Source of the DNA: an uncultured Chloroflexia bacterium
Lineage (GTDB): Bacteria; Chloroflexota; Anaerolineae; Anaerolineales; UBA4823
Length of the DNA stretch: 64,000 bases
Assembly (NCBI GenBank): GCA_963822175.1
Contig: CAWGGJ010000009.1
Coordinates: forward strand, 80,795-144,794
Reading direction: 5' to 3'
The position numbers and the translations under genes are program-made. Position 1 is the stretch's first letter, and each line of letters begins with the position of its first letter. Positions 44,545 through 62,050 of the stretch are shown in pieces. A model generated the notes under the pieces. The model made no database searches. It was not told the origin of the DNA and was given only the letters and a program-made list of their open reading frames with translations.

Positions 44545-45393
44545 GATAAATAAATCGAGCTCATCACGCAGGTTTAATGAATACAAGGTAAAACATGCGG
44601 GCAGTCCTCTCGGTGGACAGAGATTGGAAACCGGCCTTCCTAGTATTATCGCATAAGTTTGCTTCGGGCAATTTGGAAAGATAGAATCACTGTGACTTAT
44701 TATTGAAATGACTAATTGAATCCACCAGTTTTTGTCTTGAAACAAGTTTTGCTGACATTGCCTCGGTCAATGAGTTTCTTGACGGACCTTAAAGGGTAGT
44801 CCAGCCGCCATGCTTTTTCCAATACCCACCTACTTCATATCATTTCATTACTTAAAAATTACTCATCTATAAACGTGTTAAGAGACGATATAATTTATAT
44901 ACACTCCAGGGGGCAGTCATGCCCCAACCGGTTCCCATCGCCAGGTGGAGTGCATCGACGATGAAGGCGGCAGGAATTAGCCCTTGTAAGATCTCAGGAA
45001 GTTGTCGTGACGGTGCTGATGCCGCTATCCCATGTTAAGTGGTATCGATATGTTAACCCACACAACTACTCCACTGGACCCCGTGGTACCCGGCAGTACG
45101 ACAAGGATGACCACGACAAGCCAGACATCAAGAAGATGCAGGCGCCGATCAAACTGGCTCCGGGTTATCGGGTACTAAGGTCACGGATAAGGTTAGCAGA
45201 TCCAACCTGGACAACTATACCTGTGTTTTTACCTAATGCGCAAGAATAATGGTTACACCTATCGATAAAAGTGGTGTTTCGATCGGCCCAGTTGGCCGAG
45301 AAGGAGGTGAAAGACGAAATTCTTTCAATGCCTGTGCTGTCGTACAGCCAGGCTGTAGTACTCACCCAATTTCACAAAGGAGAATTAATACCG

Positions 45394-48300: not shown

Positions 48301-49596
48301 GGCGGAGCCCTGCTCTTCCAAGACTCATGGACCGAAGGAATGAGTGGGGGCGGCATCCTGAACATCGGAGCCGTTGACCTGTACGCCAATAGTGCCAGCG
48401 CAGTGTACTACGATGACATCTCCCTGAAGTACCAGGTGCAGCCATGGTTCGACAATTTCGACTCGTACGCTACCGATAGCTCGTTGCATGGGCAGGGTGG
48501 CTGGAAGGGCTGGGCAAACGATCCTGCCGCAACCGCCTATACCCGTGACACCTATGCTCTGAGTGCCCCGAACTCTGTTGAAATCATGACAACCAGCGAC
48601 TTGGTTCATGAATACACAGGTTATGACACTGGTGTCTGGTATTACACCGCGATGCAATACATCCCGTCCATCTTGAGCGGTGAGACCTACTTCCTCTTGC
48701 TCAACCAGTATGATGATGCTGGCGTAACCAACAACTGGTCAACGCAAGTCGCATTCAACGGCACCACAGACCAGCTGGCCAATGAAGGCCCAGCGGGTGG
48801 TACATTGCCTATCATCTATGACCAGTGGGTTGAGATCCGTGTCGAAATCGATCTCGACAATGACACGCAGGCATTCTACTACGGCGGAGCCCTGCTCTTC
48901 CAAGACTCATGGACCGAAGGAATGAGCGGGGGCGGCATCCTGAACATCGGAGCTGTTGACCTGTACGCCAATAGTGCCAGCGCACTGTACTACGATGACA
49001 TGTCACTGGCGAATGCCCTGCCTCAAATCTGTGATCAGACTGTAGATATGCCCTGGGTGAGCGTCGAGCCTATCAGTGGTACAACCCCTGGAGGCGCATC
49101 TTCAGAAATCGGGGTTACCTTTGACAGCACTGGCTTCAATCCCGGCGATGTTGCCACTGGAAACCTGTGCGTCATCAGCAACGATCCGGATACCTCGCTG
49201 GTCGTTGTTCCTTTGACGATGACGGTGGTGTCTCAGGACGTCGTTATCTCGCCCCTGGCGCAGACACTGACGGGTCAACCCGGCGATGTCATCACGCATA
49301 CCTTCACCGTGACCAACACCGGCCTCGAGGCTGACAGCTTCTCGCTCTCGCTCGCAGGCAACTTGTGGCCCACAACGGTGGCAGCCTCAACCGGTGAGCT
49401 GAACCCGGGCGAAGCGACGACCGTCGATGTTGTGGTGACGATTCCCGCAGCACCCGTGGACCTCAGCGACACCTTTACCCTGACGGTGACCTCGGTTGCC
49501 GAGCCTGCGGTGTCAGTCCAGGCCCAGGGAACAACCGTCGTGGAGATCGTCGTGGAGACGTATGTCGTCTACTTACCCTTGGTGTTCAAGAACTAA
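45394..49596 (+). CDS. Secreted S8 subtilase with I9 propeptide, PA domain, duplicated beta-sandwich module and C-terminal YLPLV motif
   Basis: Signal peptide; catalytic triad DTG / HGSH / GTSMSSPH; VVCDRG PA domain; ends VVYLPLVFKN. Confidence 0.93.
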   Translation: MKVKIFSMLSVFVLVFSLFLPVSSIALADKGVTSGLEDGTTARPEPMVSTADPAIYIIVLEGDSLSSYRGSLPGLTATNPEALGESKLDAKSPASLAYLDYLAGQQANFITSMEQTLGHSVEVVYQYMAALNGLAVRMTTQDAKRVSMMDGVVFVQKETIEQPDTDAGPAWIGAPSIWDGSAVPSGLGTMGEGVIVGVLDTGINSDHPSFADIGGDGYDHTNPYGPGVYVGYCVANPTFCNDKLIGAYSYTTSDPGSPEDNEGHGSHTSSTAAGNKLNATRETPTGFLIEKPISGVAPHANLIMYDVCNAGGCGGAGSVAAINQAVLDGVDVINFSISGGNNPYADSVELAFLGASSAGIFVSTSAGNNGPGPNTVAHRSPWLATVASSTHNRLFSSSLIDMSGGNNPPANIVGQSISTGYGPAPIVYAGDYGDPLCQTPFPAGTWTNGEIVVCDRGIAGRVAKGQNVMAGGAMGYVLANDAANGNSLTADAHYLPAVHITYDDGVVLKAWLADGSGHMATITETTTDLSPENGDIMASTSSRGPNTTFDVTKPDVTAPGVAIFAAYLDDVMFEFVGGTSMSSPHNAGAGALLSALYPDWSPAEMRSAIMTTASTANLVKEDGVTPADPFDVGAGRDDLTRAALAGLVLDESTANYQAANPSQGGDPQTLNQASLMDSNCQGFCSWTRTVKSTLDAAETWTLSADAPAGMVVTFNPVSFELAAGATQEVVISVDVTGLPLGSWVFAQVNLTPADPAVPVAHLPVSVLPFEAPPDISVDPAVLDEIQRADLVKTYPLNISNNGQLPLDWEILEDGSDFGLNLANWSDNFDSYATNSSLHGQGGWKGWANDPAATAYTRDTYALSAPNSVEIMTTSDLVHEYTGVTSGIWHYTAMQYIPSILSGETYFLLLNQYDDAGVTNNWSTQVAFNGTTDQLANEGAAGGALPIIYDQWVEIRVEIDLDNDTQAFYYGGALLFQDSWTEGMSGGGILNIGAVDLYANSASAVYYDDISLKYQVQPWFDNFDSYATDSSLHGQGGWKGWANDPAATAYTRDTYALSAPNSVEIMTTSDLVHEYTGYDTGVWYYTAMQYIPSILSGETYFLLLNQYDDAGVTNNWSTQVAFNGTTDQLANEGPAGGTLPIIYDQWVEIRVEIDLDNDTQAFYYGGALLFQDSWTEGMSGGGILNIGAVDLYANSASALYYDDMSLANALPQICDQTVDMPWVSVEPISGTTPGGASSEIGVTFDSTGFNPGDVATGNLCVISNDPDTSLVVVPLTMTVVSQDVVISPLAQTLTGQPGDVITHTFTVTNTGLEADSFSLSLAGNLWPTTVAASTGELNPGEATTVDVVVTIPAAPVDLSDTFTLTVTSVAEPAVSVQAQGTTVVEIVVETYVVYLPLVFKN
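47863..49002 (+). repeat. Tandem intragenic duplication, period 582 bp (194 aa)
   Basis: 47863-48420 and 48445-49002 are nearly identical at DNA level (W.DNFDSY...YYDD). Confidence 0.95.
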
Positions 49597-49628: not shown

Positions 49629-49662
49629 AATCAGGCCATCCAGAACAGCGGATGGCCTGATT
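49629..49662. terminator. Hairpin between convergent S8 and S41 genes
   Basis: AATCAGGCCATCC ... GGATGGCCTGATT. Confidence 0.75.
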
Positions 49663-49693: not shown

Positions 49694-51088
49694 TTATTCT
49701 TCCGGGTTGGTTATCGCCTCTTGAAGGTAGCTGAGAGCCGCTTCAAGCTGGGTATCCCTGCCCTGAAGCAGCTGTTGGCGATCCAGGGTAACCTCGATAT
49801 CCGGAACGACGCCGTTGTTCTCCAACACTCGCCCATATGCAACCTGTGACTGGGCAATGGGATATGCCAGAATGGTGCCGTAAGGCAGTATCTTGATGTT
49901 CATCACGAGACAGACACCAGGCGTCTGCGAACCCACGATCGTGGCTCTACCGAATACTTGCAGGCTGCCGGAGAACTCCTCGCTGGATGAGGTGCTGTGT
50001 TCATCCACCAGGATCACTACTTTGCCTGGATAGGGATTGGTGACTGGGTCGAGATAAGCCTCTTCATGGTGGTCGCGGTATTGATAACGGATGAACAGGT
50101 CTGGTCTGCCCACGAGCTGGCTGGCAATCGCTTTACGCACGAAGAACTGGCCACCCGGATTACCGCGCAGGTCAATAATTAGAGCTGGAGCATCGTGGAA
50201 TTCTTCGATGGCTTGCAGTACACCATCCTGCACTGACGATAGGAATCCGGAGAAGCGAATGTAGCCAATATCATTCGCCAGGTGTCTTACCTCGATTTCT
50301 CCGCAGGCTGGCGGCGTAGCTGGATCAAGCTGGTCGCAGCTGCTGCCAATGCGAGCGGCGAACTGCAGGGTGGCGCTCTGTGGGTGATCCTGTTCGTCCA
50401 GGTATTCGACGAGGACTGCCTTACCCGTTTCACCGTATAACATGCCGCGCATTCCCTGGATGGCGATACCCTGCTTGTGGCGCTCATTATATGGCGGTGT
50501 CTGCAGAGATTCAGCGGTAAGAACATCTAATGTCCAGCCGTCCAACGAGGTGATAACAAATCCAGATCGCAGTCCAGCCTGGTCAGCAGGAGAACCCTCT
50601 ACAACCTGGGTAACCACCGCTAATCCATCCAGCAGGCGGACGTCCAGGCCCAGCGATCCGGTGGCAAAGGTCATACGATCGAGCTCGTTAGCCATACCAG
50701 GTGGTAAAGCTACAAGGTGTGACACGCCCAGCTCGAACAGCATTGGGTTCAGCAGTCCGAGCCAGAAGGTGGTGTCATCCTCAATCTTCTCCAGTTTCTG
50801 ACGATATACATCGCCGATAGCCTGCCAATCTTTTCCTCCGAAGCTGGGATCGTAGTACTCGTCATTGATCGTCTGCCAGACTGCATCGAATATGGTGAGG
50901 CGCTCAGCAGGGGTCAGCCGATTCTCGATCATGGCTGTCGGATGGGGGGTGCGGGTTGGTGTGGGTATAAGGGTCGGAACAACGGTTGGTGCTGCTGCCG
51001 GTAGGACCTTACACGCAGTCATCGTTATGGTGCCTGCGAGGATAACCGAGGCCAGGATAAAGAAAAGGGTTCGAGATTGTTGGTTCAT
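49694..51088 (-). CDS. S41 family peptidase with PDZ domain, probable lipoprotein
   Basis: GSPADQAGL (PDZ), LIIDLRGNPGG, STSSSE, IVGSQT.G, GVVPDI. Confidence 0.9.
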   Translation of the reverse strand: MNQQSRTLFFILASVILAGTITMTACKVLPAAAPTVVPTLIPTPTRTPHPTAMIENRLTPAERLTIFDAVWQTINDEYYDPSFGGKDWQAIGDVYRQKLEKIEDDTTFWLGLLNPMLFELGVSHLVALPPGMANELDRMTFATGSLGLDVRLLDGLAVVTQVVEGSPADQAGLRSGFVITSLDGWTLDVLTAESLQTPPYNERHKQGIAIQGMRGMLYGETGKAVLVEYLDEQDHPQSATLQFAARIGSSCDQLDPATPPACGEIEVRHLANDIGYIRFSGFLSSVQDGVLQAIEEFHDAPALIIDLRGNPGGQFFVRKAIASQLVGRPDLFIRYQYRDHHEEAYLDPVTNPYPGKVVILVDEHSTSSSEEFSGSLQVFGRATIVGSQTPGVCLVMNIKILPYGTILAYPIAQSQVAYGRVLENNGVVPDIEVTLDRQQLLQGRDTQLEAALSYLQEAITNPEE

Positions 51089-51182
51089 GTTTTTCTCCTT
51101 ACACCAACCAAAAATCACTTTTATTGGCTTTTGCAGAATCTGTTGAGATTCTACACCTAAAATAGAAGCGGCATTCCCATGC

Positions 51183-52343
51183 TTACCCTGGTGTAACCAT
51201 TACCTGTGCGTGCGAGGTGATCGCCTGAACTGGGATCTCCATGGCTTTCAGGTCGCGATAAGCCAGGGTCCAGATCGATGAAAGGTAAATCTCCACCAGT
51301 CCGCTGACGAACAGGATGGGCGAAATCATCACCACGATAAAGATCGGCAGACCTGCCATCATGCCCATGATCCACGGGGTAGCCCCATCCATAAACAGGG
51401 CAGTGAAGCCTGCCACCAGGGCAGCTGGGAATCCGCCCAGGGCAACGCCGAGAGGGATCGTTAGCAGAAGAAATGGCATAAACAGGAGCATGACTGGGAC
51501 GATGAGAGGCACCCAGATCAAGCGGATGCTCACCCAGACCAACCAGAGCGGGAGGAGCTCTTCCAGGTGGTGCTTTGTCAGCACCGCCCCCTGGCGGATT
51601 GAGGCTGCCAGGCTCTGCTCTTCCAAGGCGCAGGCGCGCCGAATGGGCTGCAATACCACGGACAACACAGCACTGGCAGCAAGCCACGCCAAGAAGGCCA
51701 GGATGAGCAGTCCCATTGTGCCCATCCCAGCAGTGATGAGGATGGCATCGTGCATTCTGATTGCCAGCATGATAGGCGCAACAGCCAACCCAAACACAAT
51801 AATAGTGACAACAGCAGCCACCAGGCCGATCATAAGATCGAGCAGGAACAGCCGGCCGGCGCGGCGGGAAAAGCCTCTATGCAAGCCTCCCCACACATTC
51901 AAGTGTTTTTCGCTCGCTTCGGCTTCATCCACCATACGAATCAAGGCAGTCTCTGTGATATAGCGCGCCAATATTCCGAGCAGGAGCAAGATACCCAGGA
52001 TGATGGCAAACTCGATCAGGATTGGCCAGAGATCGATCGAAACCTCACGGTCCAGCAGATCCACTAAATCATTAAACTCATGCCAGGTAATGCCATTTTC
52101 ATTGATGATGCGGAATCCTCCAGGGGCAGTGAGGTCGATGGTCATGTCGGCTCCAGGCACATGGATGGTGGTAGTATTGGAGAGCTTGATCCTGGTCCAC
52201 TGGTCATTGTTCTCCCTGTCAGGCCAGGGGTTGAGAAAGATCATGTGTGGACCAACCAGTGCCAGGATAGCGCCGAACAACCATAATGCCTGGTAGTTCC
52301 ACAATATTTGCCAGGCTTTCTTTAGAATTGTATTGAGGTTCAT
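51183..52343 (-). CDS. Multi-pass membrane protein, homologous to 8642..9598
   Basis: ILKKAWQILWNYQALWLFG N-terminus; SSIWTLAY near the C-terminus. Confidence 0.8.
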   Translation of the reverse strand: MNLNTILKKAWQILWNYQALWLFGAILALVGPHMIFLNPWPDRENNDQWTRIKLSNTTTIHVPGADMTIDLTAPGGFRIINENGITWHEFNDLVDLLDREVSIDLWPILIEFAIILGILLLLGILARYITETALIRMVDEAEASEKHLNVWGGLHRGFSRRAGRLFLLDLMIGLVAAVVTIIVFGLAVAPIMLAIRMHDAILITAGMGTMGLLILAFLAWLAASAVLSVVLQPIRRACALEEQSLAASIRQGAVLTKHHLEELLPLWLVWVSIRLIWVPLIVPVMLLFMPFLLLTIPLGVALGGFPAALVAGFTALFMDGATPWIMGMMAGLPIFIVVMISPILFVSGLVEIYLSSIWTLAYRDLKAMEIPVQAITSHAQVMVTPG

Positions 52344-52386
52344 ATCTAACACTCCTTTTGTTACTTTAGTTATGAAGACCAACTTG

Positions 52387-52644
52387 TCACTTCAAAAGCA
52401 AGACTACGCCAATAATAATGGCAAGCATGACGAGTAACACGGTAATGCCTACCAGCACCCAGCGTGCGGTTTTAGGATTGTATGCTGTCCATGTTTGTCC
52501 GCGGCCAGTTGAGAGACCGAGGTAAGTGATGCCCAATATGGTGAGAAACCATCCCGCCCCGCTGTCGCTCATGACAAGGATGAAACCCACAACAAATAAA
52601 ACAGCAGCCGATGACCATAACCAGACTTTTTGACGATTTTTCAT
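52387..52644 (-). CDS. Small three-helix membrane protein
   Basis: GGAGGTG SD; hydrophobic, about 85 aa. Confidence 0.65.
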   Translation of the reverse strand: MKNRQKVWLWSSAAVLFVVGFILVMSDSGAGWFLTILGITYLGLSTGRGQTWTAYNPKTARWVLVGITVLLVMLAIIIGVVLLLK

Positions 52645-52679
52645 TTTCACCTCCGATTTTGGAAAGAATTATTTGTTTA

Positions 52680-52910
52680 CTAAAACCTGCCGATATTTGC
52701 CGATCGGACGATGGATGGGAGCTTGATGGTGGTTGTTTTTCCAGCTTCTTTGGAGCCGGGGAAGCTGTAGATCGAATTTTGACAAACCTTCAAGACCAAT
52801 GCATGAAGTGCCTGGACGTTTTTATACTTCTTGCTCTGAACATTAGTCTGGGTGAGAAAAGGAGTGGTCAGATTTATTTTGCTAGCCCCTGTGTGTAGAT
52901 TGAAAACCGT
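52680..52910 (-). pseudogene. Remnant of an ABC transporter ATP-binding gene
   Basis: IYTQGLAK / YKNVQAL..L.LKV.QNSIYSF.G...AGKTTTIKL is a decayed N-terminus and Walker A. Confidence 0.6.
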
Positions 52911-53772
52911 ATTTCCTTTTTTGACTGGTCTCTCACCAGGTTTTTCGGACCGAAGATGATCACGATGAGGACGCCAGCAAGCAGATAGACCCCATAGAAG
53001 TGCCAGGGAGAAGAGCCGCAACACCACACAATATCGGATGAACTATTCGCCATGGCATGAAACAATACTACAGCAAGGACACTACCATTCGTATTATTGA
53101 ACACCCAGGTGAAGAAAATAGAAACCAAAGTCTGCCACAATATGAGTTCGGCAACAGAATTTTGGCTGCTCATACCCGCTTTGAGAAGTGGGATATGCCA
53201 TGCCCCCCAGATTGCTCCCAAAACAAGGCTGGAGACAAGAGCATTCCATTTCACCTGAAAACGGGGAAGTACATAACCACGCCAACCAAATTCCTCGCTC
53301 AAGCCGCCATGGATCAAACCATTTGCGATGAGAGGAGGGATGAACATCCAGGGTTGATCCGGCCAGGTGAGAAAAGGGTAGGCTTGACCATCAAGCGTGC
53401 GAGCGACAAGGTTGGCGAGCAGCAACAATACGGGGAAGAACAGCAGGATCACGAAAAGCCATTTGATGCTCAAGTTGCGGTTCCAGAAGCGCTTCCAGAG
53501 GGCTTTCACACCGATCCTCCCCTCGGTCATTGCCGTCACTACAAATGCGCCAATTGTAGGTCCATATGGGGTTATCACACTAAGAATCATGATTGGCCAG
53601 GCAGATCCGAGATCAATTTAGATGTACCAATCCCTGTAGGCATTGTAACGATGCCAGAGATGAACAAGAGCCACCACCAGAACCAGCTCCACCCAAAGGC
53701 AATCAGGAAGAAGAATGCCAGATTGCGAGGTTCGAACGCTTTCGCTTTATATCCAACAGTTTGTGTATTCAT
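52874..53772 (-). CDS. CPBP (CAAX/Abi) intramembrane metalloprotease, frameshifted at about 53617
   Basis: EEFGWRG, WGAWH, FHAMAN. ORF 53587..53772 joins 52874..53590 if one A is added. Confidence 0.85.
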
Positions 53773-53781
53773 GTGATCTCC

Positions 53782-54639
53782 TTAAATACTTGCATATGCA
53801 CCGAATATCACCAGGCAATCCGCCGCAGCATGGAACAGAACCGCGCCCCACAAGCTGTCTGATTTTTGGATCAAGAATCCCCAGACTAGCGACAAGATCA
53901 AAACGATCACCAGAAATTGGATCATCTGCGCTGCATAAGTGACCTGGGTGTGCATAAGGGCAAAAACAATGGCTGTCAAAATGACCGATAGGTCTTTACC
54001 AAGTAAAGGCTCATATTGTTTGAGAAATATCCCTCGATAAAGTAACTCCTCCATGAACCCATTGGAAAGCACGAAGAGCAATATCCAGGGCCACAGCGGC
54101 AGCAGTTTGTCCAATACGCCGACCTGGTTACTGCTCAGGGAAAAATAAGCAAAAGCAGGGAAAACCACCCAGGCAGTTATGGCGATGGGGAGCCAAATGC
54201 GTACTCTGCCGGTATTGAGATACATGGAACGCCAGCTGAAGCCCATGAGAGGCATCAATACCAAAATCGGGATCACGCGCAAGATGCTTTCAGAGAACTT
54301 TGCCATGGCAATTCCCTGCGGGGTGGTGACCGACTGATTAAGCCATCTCAGCAGGTCGTCGCTGAAGAGAGTGCTGATGAGAACCGCTGCTCCAGCTACG
54401 AAGAAAACGTAAAATACAGGCCAGTAGGCTTTGCCATTTTCACTGCTTCTCAATAACATTGCCACAACCAGAAGTGCAGCCGTAAGGATCATGTGAAAAG
54501 TAAGCAAGGTGTTTCCAGATAAATATGGCGAGAAGGTGATGATGGCAAACACCATCGTCTCCAAGATGAAAAACAGCAGGAACGAGGCGCCTTTTTTGGG
54601 CAAGTGAGTCGCATGCAAGTTGGTGGTTGTCATATTCAT
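53782..54639 (-). CDS. CPBP (CAAX/Abi) intramembrane metalloprotease
   Basis: EELLYRG, FALMH, FHAAAD. Confidence 0.88.
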   Translation of the reverse strand: MNMTTTNLHATHLPKKGASFLLFFILETMVFAIITFSPYLSGNTLLTFHMILTAALLVVAMLLRSSENGKAYWPVFYVFFVAGAAVLISTLFSDDLLRWLNQSVTTPQGIAMAKFSESILRVIPILVLMPLMGFSWRSMYLNTGRVRIWLPIAITAWVVFPAFAYFSLSSNQVGVLDKLLPLWPWILLFVLSNGFMEELLYRGIFLKQYEPLLGKDLSVILTAIVFALMHTQVTYAAQMIQFLVIVLILSLVWGFLIQKSDSLWGAVLFHAAADCLVIFGAYASI

Positions 54640-54644
54640 TCCAT

Positions 54645-54878
54645 TTACTCACCCTGAGTCAGTTTTGTCACAGAAACGATTGATAAGCCGAGATCGTTGA
54701 TCTTTGCCAGGATGCCGTGTAAAGCTGATTGATCGGGTACGATACCAGACAGGAGAGTCTCATCACCCTGCACGGTGATGGTGAAACCATCGAACCAGTC
54801 CGACCAGCATGTATCGAGGGCACCTATCAGGCGGATCTGGTACGGAGTTGATTGATCAAATTCATGTACGTTGGTCAT
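54645..54878 (-). CDS. Small ACT-like protein (77 aa)
   Basis: AGGAGGAG SD; YQIRLIG.LD..WSDWFDG...PDQSALHGILAKINDLGLSIVSV. Confidence 0.75.
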   Translation of the reverse strand: MTNVHEFDQSTPYQIRLIGALDTCWSDWFDGFTITVQGDETLLSGIVPDQSALHGILAKINDLGLSIVSVTKLTQGE

Positions 54879-54908
54879 ATTAAGTCTCCTCCTAATGGAG
54901 TTTCCCAT

Positions 54909-54966
54909 ACTATATTCGCTCAGTGGATGAGCAGTCATCACCCATTTAGGTAATTGCATAGGGTAT
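54909..54966 (-). promoter_or_regulatory. Promoter/operator repeat, copy 1
   Basis: 42-bp block 54925-54966, 38/42 identical to 57463-57504; TATAGT -10 at 54909-54914 on the minus strand. Confidence 0.75.
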
Positions 54967-55001
54967 CTAAAAAATCACAGCGTTCGAACCATACCTTTCG
55001 C

Positions 55002-56501
55002 CTACTTCGTAGATCCTGAAATCTCGATTAATTCAGACAGATGTTCAGCTGAAAACCACCGACCGGCTGCCATCACCCCCAGGGGTTCACGGATGACACT
55101 GATATCCTCCAGTGGATTTCCTCGAACCAGGATCAGATCGGCGCGGTTTCCAACTTCGATCGTACCGAAATTACCCACCCCGGTCATCTTTTCAACCACA
55201 CGGGCAGCATTAACGGTACCGGTGAGCAAGGCTTCATACGGCGTAAAGCCATTCTCGACCAGGATACGCAGCTCGTCATGGACTGAGAAACCAGGAACGA
55301 TGCCGATGCCGCCAAGCGCATCGGTGCCCAGCAGAAGCTGAACTCCTGCCGAATGAAGACCGCTTAATATCCAGCGATCGAAATCATATTTTATGGCACA
55401 AATATCTTCAATACCTCGGCATTCTAATTGTTGATATTCTTTACCTCGCCGGACGGTTTCCAAATATTTGGGGTCCAAGAACTTATTCTCGGGACGAGCC
55501 AGGAAGGCATCAGGATGGAATTGCTTCAACCACATAATTTCAGCGATATTGACCGTCGTACAGACTGATACACCCGTGGTGCTCAGCTGATTGGCAATCT
55601 TTTCCAGTGTTGATTGATTTTCCGATTCAAAATCTGCGAAATAATTGCTCGATGACAGATCGAGCTCTTGGAGAACTGCCTGAATGAGAATTGGAAACCA
55701 CTCATCTGGCTGCAGCTGTCTGCTCCGGTCAAATTCAAAGAATTCCCAATCCAATTCCTCAACGTGAGCAATCTCATCCATCCCCGCCGACAGTACACCC
55801 TCCAAACCCACTGAAAAGGGGATGTGTCCGGCGGTGTATATCCCTAATCTTTTCGCTTCTTTCATTGTTGCCTGAAAATCAGCCACAGATAGGTAAGCAT
55901 ATATCTTAATCAAGTCGTATCCCTTTTCTTTATTCTGGCGTACAAGCCCTGCGGGATCTCCCAATGGACTGACTTCCAATTTTTCTCCTGAGGTATAAAT
56001 CATTGGACCAACCCGCGTGCCCTCCTGAATTTCATCCCGCAATTGCTGGGGATAAGTACCTAATTCATCCATTGCGTTTAGGTCTCGAATTGTGGTGACC
56101 CCATTGGCGAGGTATAGAATCAAAGGATGAACCGGCCATATCTTCGGATCCTCCCAGGGCTGAGCCCACTGTCCAGTGGATATACGGGTGTGTGCGTGCA
56201 TATCCGCCAGGCCTGGCATCAGGTAGGCACCCTGGCCATCGATCACCTGGGATCCACGGGGAATCTTAAGCTCATCAGCAGGACCGATATCAATGATATC
56301 CGAGCCGCTCACCAGCACGGTTTGGTCTTCAATCACTATTTCACTGGTCATGGGGATTAAGTTCACATTGGTGAAGGCGATCACTTGCTCTGTATTGATA
56401 TCACTAGCGGATGCGCATGCGGTTATCAGGATGGCAGATAAGATAACCAGGCTTACAACGCTATATACCCTTTGCCGGGTGGTTGGTTTATTTGTTTTCA
56501 T
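55002..56501 (-). CDS. Amidohydrolase family lipoprotein
   Basis: Lipobox ITAC; MPGLADMHAH, GVTTIRD, GH, AH, LGTD, G.RADL. Confidence 0.88.
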   Translation of the reverse strand: MKTNKPTTRQRVYSVVSLVILSAILITACASASDINTEQVIAFTNVNLIPMTSEIVIEDQTVLVSGSDIIDIGPADELKIPRGSQVIDGQGAYLMPGLADMHAHTRISTGQWAQPWEDPKIWPVHPLILYLANGVTTIRDLNAMDELGTYPQQLRDEIQEGTRVGPMIYTSGEKLEVSPLGDPAGLVRQNKEKGYDLIKIYAYLSVADFQATMKEAKRLGIYTAGHIPFSVGLEGVLSAGMDEIAHVEELDWEFFEFDRSRQLQPDEWFPILIQAVLQELDLSSSNYFADFESENQSTLEKIANQLSTTGVSVCTTVNIAEIMWLKQFHPDAFLARPENKFLDPKYLETVRRGKEYQQLECRGIEDICAIKYDFDRWILSGLHSAGVQLLLGTDALGGIGIVPGFSVHDELRILVENGFTPYEALLTGTVNAARVVEKMTGVGNFGTIEVGNRADLILVRGNPLEDISVIREPLGVMAAGRWFSAEHLSELIEISGSTK

Positions 56502-56545
56502 CGTTACGATTTCCTTATCTCATTTCAGGCATATTTAATGACCTT

Positions 56546-56591
56546 GTTGTGGTGTTTTGGTGACGTGGAGTGTTTACCAAAACACCACAAC
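56546..56591. other. Long intergenic hairpin (about 18 bp)
   Basis: GTTGTGGTGTTTTGGTGA ... TTACCAAAACACCACAAC. Confidence 0.7.
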
Positions 56592-56610
56592 GAAAACTAC
56601 ATGCGTCCTT

Positions 56611-57303
56611 TTATGGATAACCCAACGGCGGATAACCCCACGGCCAATGTTGGCCGTAAGAGCCAAACAGGCCACCTGATTTGATCAATACCGCTCCCTC
56701 GCCATCCACAGAGCGTATAACGGCTTTTAGGGCTTCATCTACAATCATGCCGCTCACATCCATGGTGACCTTGCGATCACCTTCATCTTTCCAGGCTTTG
56801 ATGGTGAGACCGCAAGCCTTTGAGATCTCCTTCAATACGGCGCTCAACGGAACATTTTCGAAGACCATACCCTCGGGCAAACGGCTCCGAAGGATTGTTC
56901 TACGCTGCTCAAGCTCCACCCATTGATTGTCTTGCCATTTGTCAATGAACGTGTAGGGTCTGATCGTAAGATGGTGCTCATTTAAAATCCACTTGCATCT
57001 AATTTGCGGGCAGATGATGCCAATGACTTCAGAGACTGTTGCGTTCTCTACATTTACTGTGACATGCTTACCGACAAATGGGTAAAGCGTAATGGCACAA
57101 TCAGGATTAGTGGCTAGCTGGTCGATGACTACCTGCGGCTTGACATCGGTGACATTTATCGTCACTCGCATGCCCATATCAATATCGCACGAAGAATCCT
57201 CTGTCTGGGCTTTGGAGGAACACGAAGACAGGGTTATAACGGCAAGCATGACGAGCATGACTCCGAGTAGTATTTTTATAGATTTATAAAGGCGAGTATT
57301 CAT
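56611..57303 (-). CDS. Lipoprotein with two STN-like modules
   Basis: Lipobox LSSC; FENVPLSAVLKEISKACGLTI...RKVTMDVSGMIVDEAL and a similar earlier segment. Confidence 0.6.
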   Translation of the reverse strand: MNTRLYKSIKILLGVMLVMLAVITLSSCSSKAQTEDSSCDIDMGMRVTINVTDVKPQVVIDQLATNPDCAITLYPFVGKHVTVNVENATVSEVIGIICPQIRCKWILNEHHLTIRPYTFIDKWQDNQWVELEQRRTILRSRLPEGMVFENVPLSAVLKEISKACGLTIKAWKDEGDRKVTMDVSGMIVDEALKAVIRSVDGEGAVLIKSGGLFGSYGQHWPWGYPPLGYP

Positions 57304-57446
57304 AGTATTTCCTTATTCTGAAGTATCTAGGTTTATTTAAGAACAGAATATTCGGGTTTGGTTGATTTTTAGATTCAATTATCTCCTCCTTACATATGTC
57401 GCATATCACCACCACTTAAAATTCCATTTTATTGAACATCTTCTTT

Positions 57447-57504
57447 ACTATAGGTGCTGGATGGATGAGCAGTCATCACCCATATGGGTGATTGCGTAGG
57501 GTAT
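57447..57504 (-). promoter_or_regulatory. Promoter/operator repeat, copy 2
   Basis: Perfect 18-bp palindrome ATCACCCATATGGGTGAT at 57475-57492; TATAGT at 57447-57452 with the same spacing as copy 1. Confidence 0.75.
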
Positions 57505-57561
57505 TAAATAAAAAATCCCCCACCATTTGGTGAGAGATTTGTGGTTTAAACTACCCCTCTC

Positions 57562-60261
57562 CTAAATTAAGTTGAGATCTTTGGCCTTTTTAACCGCCTC
57601 GAAGCGCCCATTAACCCCTAATTTGCTGTAGATATTACGGATATGGGTGCGGATGGTATTTACCGAGAGATATAATTCGCGGCCAATTTCAGTACTGGTC
57701 AATGAGCTATCCAGCAGGTGCAGCACCTGGAGCTCGCGCTCGCTGAGTGGTTCAATGAGGGTGGCAGCTGGAGTTTTGGATCGGGTTTTGTGAGAGACCG
57801 GCAATTTAAAGACGATTGCTGAAGCAGGGGCATTGAATGCCAATAAAAGCTGGTTGATAAAATCAACCTCGATACCCCGTTTTGCAGCGACCTGTAACAG
57901 TCCGCGGATCAGGTCTCCCTTGCTGGTAAACACTCTGATAAACCCTTCGGGTTTGGCTAATTCCAGGGTGTGCTGAAGCATTGAAAAAGCCTGTTCCTCC
58001 TCTTTCATCATATATGAAACGATGATTTGCCGGGTACGAATTTCCAGTAGCAGGGATACTGCCCCAACCTGTTCGAGTACGTTTGCCAGATTTTCCAAAA
58101 CATTCTGAGCTTCCAGAAACTTTCCCTGAGCCTGGAGGATGGTCGAATAATGTGTATATATATATCGATGAAAATAGTCAACACTGTCATTTGGTTTTAA
58201 ACCACAATGCTCTACCCAGGTTGAAGCCCTTTGAATATTCCCCTTGGCTACGTAGATCATGGCTTCCTGCCCGCGCACTCGCGAAGTAATCGGATTATTA
58301 CTAAAAACCATTTTTGTTTCCTGGATAGTCCTCAGAGCACCATCCAAGTCACCAATAGCCAGAAGAACATCGGCATATTTTATCAATCCATTATAAAGAA
58401 AATCTTGATATCCCCACCACCTGCAGATCTCGATCCCTTCACTGGCTAAACGCAATGCCTCTGACCTATTATCCCATTCGAGGTAAAGTGAACTTAGTTT
58501 TAGATAAGCATAACCTACCGACAATGACCTGTTCTTCTTGTCTGGATAGTTTGAATCAACCATTTTAAACGTATCATCATAGAACCTTAAACTTTCCTTC
58601 AGCCTCCCCAAGGTGTGTAAAAGGCTGGCTTTTTCAAAATTGGCGGTCATTGCCATCTCGGAATCGCCTGCGGCTTGGCTCCATGAGAGGGTGATATCAA
58701 GAGCGTTTATTGCTGGCAAGATACTGCCCATCCAAGCCAGGATGTTACTCATGTGATAGCCAACAAAGGCACGTGGGCGATAATCATCCAGTGGAAGCAA
58801 TTCAAAAGCTTTTCCTGCATACTGAAGACCGTCTACCCGGTCGGAGCGTAACTCGCCTATTAATGTCCACATGGCAGCGATATATCCCATTAAACGGTGA
58901 TCGCTTCGGTCGGCATGTTTTTCTGCCTCAAGTACAGCTGACTTTATCTCTTCCAACCGGCCAAGATAAGCTAACAGCCAGGCGCGGGCAATATGCAGCC
59001 ACGGATTAGAACCCATCACCGCCTCGGGCAGGGTGTTCAGCCAGCTCAGGAAGGTGGAGGCTTGATGATGATCAAAGATTGTAAACGCATACTTTTCAAT
59101 TAATAAAACCAGATGGTCGATGTCATTGGCTGCGATAGCGTGAGTCAGGGCGTTGGATATGTATCCGTTTTCTGAAAACCAGGTGCAAGCTTTGCCATGC
59201 AGCAGTGGGATAATTTCTGGGTGTGCCTGCTTCAAGCGCGAACGCAATAGCTCGGAGAACAAGTGATGAAATCGATACCAGTGACGCTCATCGTCCATGG
59301 GAACCAGAAACATATTGGATTTTTCCAATTGAATGAGCATAGCCTGGCTATCTTTGCTGCCGGTAATTGCGTCACATAAAGGTCCAGACAGGTATTCCAG
59401 GATGGATGTATATAATAAAAAATCCAGAAACTCGGGTTTTTGTTGGCCCAGCACTTCCTCAAGCAGGTAATCCAACACATAGTGATGGGTGCCTGAAAAA
59501 CCCTCCAAAAAACCATTGACATCTGATCGACTTTGCATCGATAGAGCGGCCAGTTGCAATCCGGCAATCCAGCCTTCTGTACGCTGCTCCAATAATTCGA
59601 TATCGCGGTGGGTGAGATTTAATCCCATAACTTCACCCAGAAAAGTGGTAGATTCCGGCAGTGAGAAACGCAAGTCTTTTACACGCACCTCGACCAAGTT
59701 ATCACGCACGCGCCAGCGAGCCAGTGGCCAGGGAGGATCCATCCGGCTGGCAACCACAAGATGGAAGCCATGGCGGGATTGTGGCAGGTGGTCAATCAGG
59801 TAAATGAGATCCTTATGGATTTGACCTTCTGAGATGGTATGCAGGTCATCCAGCACAAGCAGCGCCGTTGTGTTTAAGCTGAAGAACTGATTGAGCAGGT
59901 CGGTAAGCAGAGTATCCATCGCAGGTGGCTGAGTAGATTGCAATGCCTGAAATAATGATTCGTCAATATCCAACTGATGGAGACCAGGAATCATTGATAA
60001 GGCTTTGTAAAAATAATTCCAGAAACGAGCTGGAGAATTCTCCCCCTTTTCAAGCGAAAGCCAGGCAACCGGGAAATCAAGCTGCGAAACCCACTCACAT
60101 AAGAGAGTGCTTTTACCATAACCTGCAGGTGCAGAAACGAGCGTCAGGCAATGATTTTGTGTAATGCCATCATTTAACCGCTGGACCAGGTGCGACCGGT
60201 TGACCAGGTTGCTTCGGAGAGGCGGGATGCGAGTTTTGGTTGCCAGTAAGGTGTCTGACAC
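57562..60261 (-). CDS. MalT-like STAND ATPase/TPR/LuxR-HTH transcriptional regulator
   Basis: LLATK, Walker A APAGYGKST, Walker B LVLDDLH, TEGWIAGL, YRFHHLF, C-terminal LSERELQVL...NTIRTHIRNIYSKLGV. GTG start after GGAGG. Confidence 0.92.
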   Translation of the reverse strand: MSDTLLATKTRIPPLRSNLVNRSHLVQRLNDGITQNHCLTLVSAPAGYGKSTLLCEWVSQLDFPVAWLSLEKGENSPARFWNYFYKALSMIPGLHQLDIDESLFQALQSTQPPAMDTLLTDLLNQFFSLNTTALLVLDDLHTISEGQIHKDLIYLIDHLPQSRHGFHLVVASRMDPPWPLARWRVRDNLVEVRVKDLRFSLPESTTFLGEVMGLNLTHRDIELLEQRTEGWIAGLQLAALSMQSRSDVNGFLEGFSGTHHYVLDYLLEEVLGQQKPEFLDFLLYTSILEYLSGPLCDAITGSKDSQAMLIQLEKSNMFLVPMDDERHWYRFHHLFSELLRSRLKQAHPEIIPLLHGKACTWFSENGYISNALTHAIAANDIDHLVLLIEKYAFTIFDHHQASTFLSWLNTLPEAVMGSNPWLHIARAWLLAYLGRLEEIKSAVLEAEKHADRSDHRLMGYIAAMWTLIGELRSDRVDGLQYAGKAFELLPLDDYRPRAFVGYHMSNILAWMGSILPAINALDITLSWSQAAGDSEMAMTANFEKASLLHTLGRLKESLRFYDDTFKMVDSNYPDKKNRSLSVGYAYLKLSSLYLEWDNRSEALRLASEGIEICRWWGYQDFLYNGLIKYADVLLAIGDLDGALRTIQETKMVFSNNPITSRVRGQEAMIYVAKGNIQRASTWVEHCGLKPNDSVDYFHRYIYTHYSTILQAQGKFLEAQNVLENLANVLEQVGAVSLLLEIRTRQIIVSYMMKEEEQAFSMLQHTLELAKPEGFIRVFTSKGDLIRGLLQVAAKRGIEVDFINQLLLAFNAPASAIVFKLPVSHKTRSKTPAATLIEPLSERELQVLHLLDSSLTSTEIGRELYLSVNTIRTHIRNIYSKLGVNGRFEAVKKAKDLNLI

Positions 60262-60383
60262 CTTTTTTATCCTCCATAAAGGCACTCTTCATTATATAGA
60301 ATATTCAGGTGCGATTCAATAGGGAGTTTTTGTCCGTGATGCATTAAAAGGACGGAGTCAGCCATTCATCCCTTTAAAAAAAA

Positions 60384-60405
60384 CCTGGCAGTATTCACTG
60401 CCAGG
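60384..60405 (-). terminator. lysS terminator
   Basis: CCTGGCAGT-ATTC-ACTGCCAGG followed by a T run on the minus strand. Confidence 0.8.
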
Positions 60406-60422
60406 CTAGACTATCAAACAAA

Positions 60423-61952
60423 TCACTCTTCCCGCGAGCGCAGATGCGGGAACAGGATGACCTCGCGAATGTTGGGGTGGTCGGTGAGGAGCATGATCAG
60501 ACGATCGATGCCCATGCCGAAGCCGCCATTGGGGGGCATGCCATAGCGCATAGCCCGCAGATAGTCCTCATCCATGGGGTGGTGTTCTTCGTCATCAGCC
60601 TCGTAATCGCGGCCCATTTCCAGGAAGCGTTTCTCCTGGTCGAGCGGGTCATTTAGCTCGGTAAATGCATTGCACAGTTCCATTCCCGCCACGTAGCCCT
60701 CGAAACGCTCCACGGTTAATGGATCACCCGGTTTGCTCTTGGCCAGAGGTGATAAATCGCGCGGATAATCATACAGGAAGGTTGGCTGAATGAGGGTAGG
60801 CTCGAGGTATTCAGACAACAGTTGATCGATCAGCTTGCCGCGCGTTTCACCGGGTTTGGTTTCGATCCCGTGTTCCCTCATTACCGCTTCAAGGGTATCG
60901 GCAGTCGGATAAGCAGCGATATCGATCCCCGACGTATTGAGTATGCCCTGGCGGAGCTCCAAGCGCGGCCACGGGATTTCGAAGCTGAGCTCATGGCCAT
61001 TGTAGGTTACCTTCCGCTGACCCAAGACACGATCGCAAACAAAGGCAAGCATCTGCTCAGTCATCTCCATGACCTGGAGATAATCAGCATAGGCACAGTA
61101 GAACTCCAACTGGGTAAACTCAGGGTTGTGTTTGAAGGAGACACCCTCATTGCGAAAATCACGTCCAAGCTCATACACACGCTCGATGCCACCCACCAAC
61201 AGGCGTTTGAGATACAGCTCAAAGGAGATACGCAGGTAGAGGTCCTGGTGCAGCTGGTTGTGATGGGTGATAAATGGTTTGGCAGCCGCCCCGCCATAGA
61301 TGGGCTGAAGGATGGGGGTTTCCACTTCCAAAAAGCCCTGTCCATCCAGGAAACTGCGCAGGGCTGTCACGATGGCTGACCGGCTCTGGAAGATCTGGCG
61401 GATTTCCGGGTTTACCGCTAGGTCGGCATAACGCTGGCGGTAGCGAGTTTCTGGGTCTGCCAGCAGGGCATAGCGGACGATCTCTCCATCCACAACTACA
61501 TCCTTGGCGGCAGGCAACGGGGTGATGGCTTTGGCAAGCATTTGGAAGGATTCCACTTGCAGCGATATCTCACCTGAACGCGTGCGGAACACCCCACCAC
61601 TGGCCTGGATGAAGTCACCCAGGTCAAACTCGCGGTTGAAAAGGTCGAGCTGCTCCTGGCCAATGTCATTGGCCCGCAAGAAGAGTTGGATGCGCCCTTC
61701 GCCATCCTCTATGTGAGCGAAGGTGATCTTGCCCATTGGGCGGATGGAACGCAGCCTGCCTGCCAGGGCTGCCTTCACAGGCTGTGGCTGCTCGCCTTGA
61801 GCAGCAGCTTCTGCAGCCTCGAAGAGGCGGCTGGCTGACTGGCTGGTGTGAGTGCGGACGGTGCGTGTGGGGAAAGGCTCGATCCCATTGGCGCGCAAGC
61901 GCTCCAATTTTTCCAAACGGTTCATTTCAAGGCTGGTAAGCTCATTCATCAT
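60423..61952 (-). CDS. lysS: Lysine--tRNA ligase (class II)
   Basis: RYRQRY.DL, FLEVETP, FRNEG, HNPEF, GMPPNGGFGMGIDR. Confidence 0.97.
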   Translation of the reverse strand: MMNELTSLEMNRLEKLERLRANGIEPFPTRTVRTHTSQSASRLFEAAEAAAQGEQPQPVKAALAGRLRSIRPMGKITFAHIEDGEGRIQLFLRANDIGQEQLDLFNREFDLGDFIQASGGVFRTRSGEISLQVESFQMLAKAITPLPAAKDVVVDGEIVRYALLADPETRYRQRYADLAVNPEIRQIFQSRSAIVTALRSFLDGQGFLEVETPILQPIYGGAAAKPFITHHNQLHQDLYLRISFELYLKRLLVGGIERVYELGRDFRNEGVSFKHNPEFTQLEFYCAYADYLQVMEMTEQMLAFVCDRVLGQRKVTYNGHELSFEIPWPRLELRQGILNTSGIDIAAYPTADTLEAVMREHGIETKPGETRGKLIDQLLSEYLEPTLIQPTFLYDYPRDLSPLAKSKPGDPLTVERFEGYVAGMELCNAFTELNDPLDQEKRFLEMGRDYEADDEEHHPMDEDYLRAMRYGMPPNGGFGMGIDRLIMLLTDHPNIREVILFPHLRSREE

Positions 61953-62050
61953 GTTATCGCTCCACATACTGTTGACGATTGTTTAAGAGGCAATTAAGCA
62001 AAAACCCCGCGCAAGGGATCCATGCGCGGGGCTGGAAATTAGCCCCTTTA

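What the first reader, a model, noticed from the sequence alone, without database searches (positions are those of the whole stretch)
49694..60261. STAND (MalT-like) regulator cassette with duplicated operator driving peptide/envelope-processing genes
Seen: a 10.6-kb co-oriented block beside lysS. In order: STAND-TPR-LuxR regulator; promoter copy 2; STN-like lipoprotein; amidohydrolase lipoprotein; promoter copy 1; ACT-like 77-aa protein; two CPBP proteases; ABC remnant; two membrane proteins; S41 protease. It contains no maltose or other sugar genes. Established: MalT-type STAND activators oligomerise on ligand binding and activate nearby promoters; some CPBP/Abi proteins confer bacteriocin immunity. 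Inference: an uncharacterised sense-and-degrade regulon, possibly responding to peptides or antimicrobials, with exchangeable cargo. This is the best candidate for an undescribed system in the window.
Basis: partly seen in the sequence, partly recalled or inferred. Interest (0 to 1): 0.72.

Follow-up and report, generated by a model that had tools for sequence, protein, structure and literature searches.

The report
MalT-type gene switch with small partner
This block encodes a large MalT-type regulator, two copies of a four-box DNA site that it likely binds to switch on neighbouring membrane and enzyme genes, and a small unnamed protein that travels with such regulators in many bacteria and may tune them; the switch type is known, while the partner's role and the signal are untested.

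Summary
The anatomy is confirmed, with corrections. The repeat is not a lone palindrome but a four-box promoter (two direct boxes, one inverted box, one box at the -35 position, then a -10 hexamer), present twice in this genome. The same layout follows 94 of 235 MalT-like genes, against 3 of 200 control flanks. Its box sequence tracks the regulator's recognition helix (72 of 72 loci tested), but on only 4 well-supported independent branches (p=0.125). The 77-aa gene is a large family without a Pfam model (14,565 clusters), with a ferredoxin/ACT/RAM-like fold. It lies near 41 of 45 MalT-like genes in congeners. Cargo varies widely. The block is an insertion at a variable site after lysS. Sensing of peptides or antimicrobials is not shown, and homologous cargo is often not peptidases. 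A non-maltose MalT regulon is published for Actinoplanes (PMC7567727). This scan noted the same module before on other DNA. Verdict: new variant of a known kind; the partner protein and the helix-box code are the open, testable parts.

The parts
60291..60319 (-). sigma-70-like promoter of the regulator gene (TTGAAT-17-TATAAT), just after the lysS terminator (60382-60407)
   Evidence: best consensus match in the region (10 of 12); function inferred
57562..60261 (-). MalT-like STAND regulator, 899 aa from the GTG behind a ribosome site: NBD, winged helix, arm, TPR sensor, LuxR HTH
   Evidence: TPR_MalT E 2e-37, GerE; PRK04841 426 bits, cut-off 537; E. coli MalT 8BOB, E 4e-49, residues 10-426
57513..57540 (-). 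terminator-like hairpin closing the regulator gene
57447..57504 (-). four-box promoter, upstream copy: box1 57497-57504, box2 57485-57492, inverted box3 57475-57482, box4 57462-57469, -10 hexamer 57447-57452
56611..57303 (-). 230-aa predicted lipoprotein, STN-like
   Evidence: lipobox-like Cys28; no Pfam hit itself; PF07660 on many homologues and on the top Atlas cluster, 43% of members
55002..56501 (-). amidohydrolase, predicted lipoprotein
   Evidence: PF01979; Xaa-Pro dipeptidase model far under cut-off, 112 of 500 bits; DxHxH motif, Cys29
54909..54966 (-). four-box promoter, downstream copy: box1 54959-54966, box2 54947-54954, inverted box3 54937-54944, box4 54924-54931, -10 hexamer 54909-54914
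54645..54878 (-). 77-aa companion protein, ferredoxin/ACT/RAM-like fold, no family model
53782..54639 (-). CPBP (Rce1-like) intramembrane protease 1, catalytic motifs present
52874..53772 (-). CPBP protease 2, split by a one-base frameshift near 53614-53620 in this assembly
52680..52898 (-). N-terminal remnant of a DrrA-like ABC ATPase
   Evidence: TIGR01188 E 8e-7, 42 of 302 positions
52387..52650 (-). 87-aa hydrophobic membrane protein
   Evidence: no family; homologues in L021, L030
51183..52382 (-). 399-aa membrane protein, weak DUF7544 match
   Evidence: 21.5 bits, cut-off 27
49694..51118 (-). S41 C-terminal processing protease with PDZ, predicted lipoprotein
49629..49662 (-). terminator-like hairpin at the end of the block

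Best explanation
The block encodes a MalT-type STAND regulator that likely oligomerises on binding an unknown small ligand, likely docks on the two four-box promoters beside it and so would switch on two short operons of envelope hydrolases and membrane proteins, the second led by a small ACT/RAM-like protein that may act back on the regulator. Steps: (1) shown: domain layout, two promoter copies, conserved promoter geometry, linkage of the small gene, variable cargo; (2) from established MalT biochemistry (PMC10427625): ADP-bound monomer, ligand-triggered ATP exchange and oligomerisation; (3) inferred, about 85%: the HTH reads these boxes, with box4 in place of a -35 hexamer; (4) inferred, about 40%: the small protein binds the regulator as a feedback inhibitor or ligand-sensing subunit, as MalY does for MalT or stand-alone RAM proteins do for Lrp; (5) inferred, about 45%: the signal is an envelope-active or foreign compound or an envelope breakdown product, not a maltodextrin.
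For: Boxes and -10 conserved while the spacer diverges between the two copies. Same geometry after 77 of 193 MalT-like genes above the highest of 193 shuffles, 94 of 235 in the larger set, versus 3 of 200 flanks of other long ORFs. Helix Asn goes with TCAC boxes in 45 of 45 loci and Ser/Thr with TCCC or TCAT in 27 of 27; each trait changes 7 times on the tree. Paralogues in this genome carry different boxes with different helices. Small gene within 500 nt of 28, and within 6 kb of 41, of 45 near-full-length regulators in 19 congener genomes; a MalT body lies beside 54 of 59, 15 of 18, 14 of 19 and 16 of 20 small genes in four locus sets. It is the first gene after the promoter in 58 of 77 loci. 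NBD, winged helix and HTH are conserved (median 47, 56, 52%) while the sensor is not (23%), as expected for many ligands. Actinoplanes precedent: deletion lowers 42 of 51 neighbouring genes; box overlaps -35 (PMC7567727).
Against: No binding or expression data. The tree-aware test is not significant: 4 independent pairs on starred branches, all concordant, p=0.125 (3 pairs, p=0.25; 4 pairs, p=0.125), and HTH and promoter are adjacent, so they are inherited together. A second helix-box rule (Lys versus non-TC box) is weaker, 82 of 91. 141 of 235 regulators do not pass the promoter score, which was shaped on this window's copy. 11 of 34 other LuxR-HTH flanks in the same loci also passed (not examined). 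The small domain is fused to cargo far more often than to the regulator: of 120 longer proteins listed, 78 carry DUF6326, 12 DUF4386, 16 a zinc dehydrogenase, and 1 a MalT with a cut-off HTH. Some small genes have no MalT nearby (5 of 59; also L356). Cargo is too mixed to name a ligand.
Confidence: 0.65

Rival explanations
1. Same activator and promoters, but the small protein serves the cargo, not the regulator: a cytoplasmic ligand-binding or scaffold subunit for the membrane proteins and enzymes it is often fused to.
For: In-frame fusions to DUF6326, DUF4386, zinc dehydrogenases and an ABC ATPase dominate the longer homologues. In 19 of 77 loci it sits inside the operon rather than first.
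Against: The fusion partners are unrelated folds, and several fusions keep a Met after a short K-E linker that looks like a former ribosome site, as if only a stop codon was lost (by inspection). Linkage to the regulator holds whatever the cargo.
Confidence: 0.3
2. One reading: a dedicated peptide or antimicrobial sense-and-degrade regulon, with all ten genes acting as one pathway.
For: This copy carries two CPBP proteases, an S41 protease, an amidohydrolase and an exporter remnant. CPBP proteases, serine hydrolases and ABC exporters recur near homologues. A congener has S41, the 399-aa protein and a CPBP gene at the same site behind what looks like a NarL-type two-component pair (L104, by inspection).
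Against: No ligand evidence. Zinc dehydrogenases (16 loci) and DUF2938 (12 loci) are the most frequent single cargo clusters among 84 loci. The block is a mosaic with an ABC remnant and a frameshifted gene, and its tail genes occur without this regulator (L104, L021). The Actinoplanes regulon responded to carbon source (PMC7567727).
Confidence: 0.25
3. The repeats are relics of duplication or recombination at an insertion hot spot, or sites for another factor (an alternative sigma factor), and the regulator is only a neighbour.
For: The site after lysS is variable among congeners. Copies of this promoter type occur with no regulator within 1.5 kb in three congener loci and in L021.
Against: Selective conservation of boxes over spacer, helix-box concordance, fixed position after the regulator's terminator, similarity to the published MalT box core (PMC7567727).
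Confidence: 0.08

Closest known systems
E. coli MalT and its MalT boxes, with inhibitors MalY, Aes, MalK (PMC10427625, passages read)
   Same: Domain order; NOD aligns with 8BOB at E 4e-49; TPR_MalT sensor family; box4 here is the reverse complement of a GGATGA core, the MalT-box core quoted in PMC7567727; repeated boxes with one at the -35 position.
   Different: Under the MalT equivalog cut-off; no maltose genes; no hit to a solved MalT sensor chain at E 1e-6; a dedicated small companion gene instead of moonlighting enzyme inhibitors; up to eight paralogues per genome with different boxes.
Actinoplanes sp. SE50/110 MalT-like ACSP50_3915 and its maltose-regulated large genomic region (PMC7567727; abstract, introduction, passages, Discussion and supplement rows read)
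   Same: MalT-like activator of adjacent non-sugar genes, many for membrane proteins, peptidases and hypothetical proteins; box with TCATCC core over the -35 region; gene content differs among relatives.
   Different: There a single TCATCC-N5-GGATGA palindrome before 17 start sites in a 51-gene region; here four boxes and two promoters. That exact palindrome is absent from this block (one site elsewhere in the genome). The parts read mention no small companion or helix-box code; whether that region encodes the small protein was not tested.
ACT domains and stand-alone RAM proteins (PMC2995911, passages read)
   Same: Predicted beta-alpha-beta-beta-alpha-beta fold; top structural matches are a homoserine dehydrogenase chain (C-terminal region, Z 7.5, rmsd 2.8, 76 aligned) and small Lrp/RAM-type chains (2djw Z 7.2, rmsd 2.2, 67 aligned; 2zbc Z 6.5). 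Stand-alone RAM DM1 forms mixed oligomers with an Lrp regulator in vitro.
   Different: No sequence homology (hhalign probability 1.3%; no Pfam hit over cut-off); Z under 8 may mean only a common fold; the partner here would be a STAND protein.

Membership tests
MalT-like / LAL STAND transcription regulators | N-terminal STAND NTPase with Walker A and B | tested here: met
   GYGKS and LVLDD motifs align with E. coli MalT 8BOB; invariant or near-invariant in 55 homologues
MalT-like / LAL STAND transcription regulators | TPR-type (SUPR) sensor domain | tested here: met
   PF17874 129.6 bits, cut-off 45
MalT-like / LAL STAND transcription regulators | C-terminal LuxR HTH | tested here: met
   PF00196 53.1 bits, cut-off 23.5
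MalT-like / LAL STAND transcription regulators | Ligand- and ATP-dependent oligomerisation and promoter activation | not testable with these tools
   Inferred from PMC10427625 and PMC7567727
MalT sensu stricto (maltose regulon activator) | Equivalog score over cut-off | tested here: not met
   PRK04841 426.2 bits versus 537
MalT sensu stricto (maltose regulon activator) | Controls maltodextrin uptake and catabolism genes | tested here: not met
   None in the block or among 47 cargo representatives scanned; the promoter core has only these two copies in the genome
MalT sensu stricto (maltose regulon activator) | Maltotriose as inducer | not testable with these tools
   Sensor diverged (median 23% identity to homologues)
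Actinoplanes MRLGR-type regulon | TCATCC-N5-GGATGA palindrome over -35 | tested here: not met
   No exact site in the block; one elsewhere in the genome; here a four-box array
Actinoplanes MRLGR-type regulon | MalT-like gene amid co-regulated non-sugar membrane and enzyme genes | tested here: inconclusive
   Gene content fits; co-regulation not testable
ACT / RAM domain (77-aa protein) | Ferredoxin-like beta-alpha-beta-beta-alpha-beta fold | tested here: met
   AlphaFold pLDDT 83.9, E11-18 H23-29 E33-37 E40-47 H50-63 E66-72
ACT / RAM domain (77-aa protein) | Structural match standing above other ferredoxin folds | tested here: inconclusive
   Best Z 7.5, none at 8 or more, many unrelated folds within 1 to 1.5; Foldseek best E 4e-3
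ACT / RAM domain (77-aa protein) | Sequence profile homology to ACT | tested here: not met
   No ACT Pfam hit over cut-off in 69 members; hhalign 1.3% against 20 ACT domains
ACT / RAM domain (77-aa protein) | Small-molecule binding at an oligomer interface | not testable with these tools
   No assay possible
CPBP/Abi bacteriocin immunity locus | CPBP catalytic motifs | tested here: met
   EExxxR, FxxxH or WxxxH, and HxxxN/D in both genes; gene 2 frameshifted
CPBP/Abi bacteriocin immunity locus | Adjacent bacteriocin precursor or biosynthesis genes | tested here: inconclusive
   None among ORFs of 60 aa or more in or beside the block; shorter ORFs were not screened

The most novel reading that the evidence does not exclude
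A widespread two-part class of STAND transcription switch: each MalT-like activator induces its own small ACT/RAM-like partner, a family of over 14,000 clusters with no name, which binds it as a built-in feedback inhibitor or second sensor; paralogues stay insulated by a simple helix-to-box code, and promoter-plus-cargo units are swapped in and out behind them.
Probability: 0.35. Interest if true: 0.72.

Novelty: new variant of a known kind. Interest (0 to 1): 0.5.

Why it matters
MalT is the model bacterial NLR-like transcription factor, yet most MalT-like proteins have no known site, ligand or regulator. This module supplies predicted sites for hundreds of them, a one-residue specificity rule that a single gel-shift can test, and a candidate role for a very large unannotated protein family. 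It would also tie orphan membrane families (DUF4386, DUF6326, DUF2938, DUF2306) and CPBP proteases to one kind of inducible response. The mechanism class is already known, the ligand is unknown, and this window's cargo is one mosaic example, which limits the surprise.

Tried and rejected
Complex prediction of the full regulator with the small protein: score 0.00 in two runs, verdict 'no answer', partner fold uncertain; it says nothing either way. Genome scan for the exact palindrome as a wider regulon: only two sites, one inside a gene; other spacings give as many; the 33-nt core with up to 9 mismatches finds only the two copies. A third promoter copy before the tail genes: none found. First operator search with one shared weight matrix collapsed onto one subfamily and was replaced by a self-similarity score. 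'Other LuxR-HTH flanks' as control (11 of 34 passed) was judged unclean because the loci were chosen around the small gene; replaced by 200 random long-ORF flanks. Idea that the small protein is a permuted ACT domain: only a 26-column, 1.3% match of its second half to the first half of ACT; not supported. PDB sequence searches with the small protein and its profile: no hit. Viral contigs: no relative. No RNA holder listed. One MalT-small fusion (P0270) has a cut-off HTH and one member; not taken as evidence. A contig joint linking the regulator end straight to the downstream promoter copy (54965 to 57704, 2 of 8 runs, 41-nt side, 85% likeness) may come from related organisms; a hint only. Literature: searches (MalT-like, LuxR, Chloroflexi; DUF4386, LuxR; four of LuxR, MalT, STAND, ACT domain, small protein) gave 0 papers; one search was swamped by 'malt'; listings gave nothing on this module; PMC13683440 (abstract and passages) concerns other LuxR regulators. 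(Actinoplanes palindrome in 6 genomes) was uninformative. Subscription papers and older MalT promoter papers were not searchable.
Full report
Observation. The block 49694-60261 is ten co-oriented minus-strand genes after lysS. Family scans give a MalT-like regulator (TPR_MalT, LuxR HTH, PRK04841 426 bits under its 537 cut-off), an amidohydrolase, two CPBP proteases, a 72-aa ABC ATPase remnant, a weak DUF7544 protein and an S41 protease; the 230-, 77- and 87-aa proteins have no model. Many homologues of the 230-aa protein carry an STN domain. The second CPBP gene is frameshifted near 53614-53620, and contigs from 4 of 8 environmental runs have one more base there, so it is either an assembly error or a recent break. 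Homologue titles place the genome among Chloroflexota, Anaerolineae-like (inference).

The repeat. Two 67-nt copies, 81% identical, lie before the lipoprotein gene and before the 77-aa gene. Each reads box1, box2 twelve bases on, an inverted box3, GACTG, box4, nine bases, TATAGT. Boxes match at 30 of 32 positions, the spacer at 3 of 9. It has three matches with up to one mismatch in the window against 0.20 expected, but one is inside the small gene and is not conserved (0 of 50 homologues), and genome-wide the exact form occurs twice, like other spacings. The core has only these two copies in the 4.58-Mb genome, so the regulon is local.

History of the site. No congener has a close copy of this regulator (best 40% over full length among 21 other genomes of the genus). 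Of 16 congener stretches downstream of lysS, 15 show no DNA similarity to the block; one (L104) has the S41 and 399-aa genes (blastn part; the middle of the tblastn listing was cut from view). L104 holds them behind what looks by inspection like a NarL-type two-component pair. L021 has promoter, small gene and tail genes after lysS but no regulator between. So the block is an insertion at a variable site and its tail is a mosaic. G+C is 47-51% against 56% for lysS.

The small protein. Its profile finds 14,565 clusters at 50% identity (7,379 at E 1e-10), with no Pfam hit over cut-off in 69 members and only 'hypothetical' Atlas clusters. It was found in 42 of 201 genomes of the own phylum, in 60 of 201 genomes of the class holding the Mycetocola locus (this tally includes one unpublished genome, G062, on which nothing else rests), on six plasmids including a cyanobacterial one beside a MalT-sized LuxR gene, and not in viral contigs. 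AlphaFold gives a ferredoxin-like fold (pLDDT 84); the best matches are ACT- and RAM-type domains at Z 7.5 and 7.2, none at 8 (Foldseek E above 0.001); there is no profile homology to ACT. 'ACT-like' holds for the fold only.

Linkage. I took the 48 near-full-length regulator rows that lie in the 19 genomes also covered, dropped 3 at contig edges, and left out split or partial rows. A small gene lies within 500 nt downstream of 28 of 45, and within 6 kb or divergently adjacent for 41 of 45. From the other side a MalT body lies in 54 of 59, 15 of 18, 14 of 19 and 16 of 20 loci with at least 3-4 kb upstream, and 18 of 28 with only 1.5 kb. These genomes are related, so the counts are not independent. 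Among 120 longer homologues listed, the domain is fused to DUF6326 (78), zinc dehydrogenase (16), DUF4386 (12), others or none (13), and once to MalT.

Promoter and helix. A self-similarity score built on this window's geometry exceeded the highest of 193 shuffles in 77 of 193 regulator flanks and 94 of 235 after adding loci, against 3 of 200 flanks of other long ORFs; 11 of 34 other LuxR-HTH flanks in the same loci passed too (not examined). All 77 had TAnnnT or GAnnnT at the -10 position, partly by construction. The box varies with the helix: among TC-type boxes, Asn at the third helix position goes with TCAC in 45 of 45 and Ser or Thr with TCCC or TCAT in 27 of 27; 22 passing loci with other residues or non-TC boxes were outside this test, two of them with Asn. 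Both traits change 7 times on a tree built without the helix, but only 4 independent pairs rest on starred branches (all concordant, p=0.125; 7 on all branches). This is strong pattern, short of proof. A second promoter copy within 9 kb occurs in 5 of 41 loci, so duplication is recurrent but not the rule. A pattern for this window's promoter type matched 4 of 22 genus genomes, control 0; three matches head predicted lipoprotein hydrolase-like genes with no regulator or small gene within 1.5 kb, which suggests promoter-plus-cargo units move or outlast their regulator.

Cargo. In 84 loci (two overlap) the most frequent clusters, counted anywhere in the locus, were zinc dehydrogenase (16), DUF2938 (12), CPBP proteases (11, 8 and 4 in separate clusters), ABC ATPase (9), amidohydrolase (6), DUF2306 (6), MFS, methyltransferase, DUF4386 and beta-lactamase-like hydrolases (47 of 82 recurrent cluster representatives were scanned). 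The theme is membrane proteins, hydrolases, export and detoxification-type enzymes; it is wider than peptides. The sensor is the least conserved domain (median 23% against 47-56% for NBD, winged helix and HTH).

Mechanism. The regulator likely has its own sigma-70-type promoter and terminator. By analogy to MalT (PMC10427625, passages) it would rest as an ADP-bound monomer, oligomerise on ligand binding, and occupy the four boxes, box4 standing at the -35 position as in the Actinoplanes and E. coli cases described in PMC7567727. Two operons would be induced. The small protein, first gene of the promoter in 58 of 77 loci (loci largely found through it), is best read as a feedback modulator, by analogy to MalY and to stand-alone RAM proteins that join Lrp oligomers (PMC2995911, passages); this step is about 40% likely and the fusions argue for the cargo-subunit rival.

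Comparison and novelty. The regulator is a MalT-like STAND member but not MalT proper. PMC7567727 (abstract, introduction, passages, Discussion, a few supplement rows) already shows a MalT-like activator of neighbouring non-sugar genes with a related box. I found no paper on the companion family, the four-box layout or the helix-box rule; that library lacks most subscription papers. Earlier notes of this scan describe the same module on other genomes; they agree but are not independent support. Verdict: new variant of a known kind, interest 0.5.

Noticed in passing
window 45271-49596: 1441-aa secreted S8 subtilase with PA and Ig-like domains and an internal 582-nt-spaced repeat (93% over 300 nt), ending in a VYLPLVFKN tail; convergent with the block and also absent between lysS and the kinase-like gene in congeners such as L101-L103.
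   Followed up: no
window 60423-61967 and congener loci L101-L116: The site just downstream of lysS is an insertion hot spot: different congeners hold nothing, a two-component pair with small cargo (L104, L105, L112, L115, by inspection) or this block.
   Followed up: partly
G000 C9, C3, C5, C8, C13 (outside the window): The genome has about eight MalT-like paralogues and nine small genes; paralogues carry different box sequences and helices.
   Followed up: partly
P0128, P0163, P0217, P0283, P0352: Recurrent in-frame fusions of the small domain to the first cargo gene, several with a Met after a K-E linker, as if two products could be made from one frame.
   Followed up: partly
P0121, P0192: Proteins with two copies of the small domain, one with membrane helices between them; hints that the domain works as a dimer.
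   Followed up: no
window 56546-56591: Perfect 16-bp inverted repeat with a 14-nt loop between the lipoprotein and amidohydrolase genes; possible RNA hairpin or protein site.
   Followed up: no
tree: Similar helix-and-box types occur on distant sensor branches and different ones on sister branches, suggesting HTH-plus-promoter units are exchanged between sensors.
   Followed up: no
L356 5986-6195: A distant small-gene homologue on a Microbacterium plasmid sits after DUF2382 genes with no MalT in 12 kb; a possible independent subfamily.
   Followed up: no
window 56611-57303: Stand-alone STN-like lipoprotein family (206 homologues); STN domains are recalled mainly from secretins and TonB receptors, so its role here is unexplained.
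   Followed up: partly
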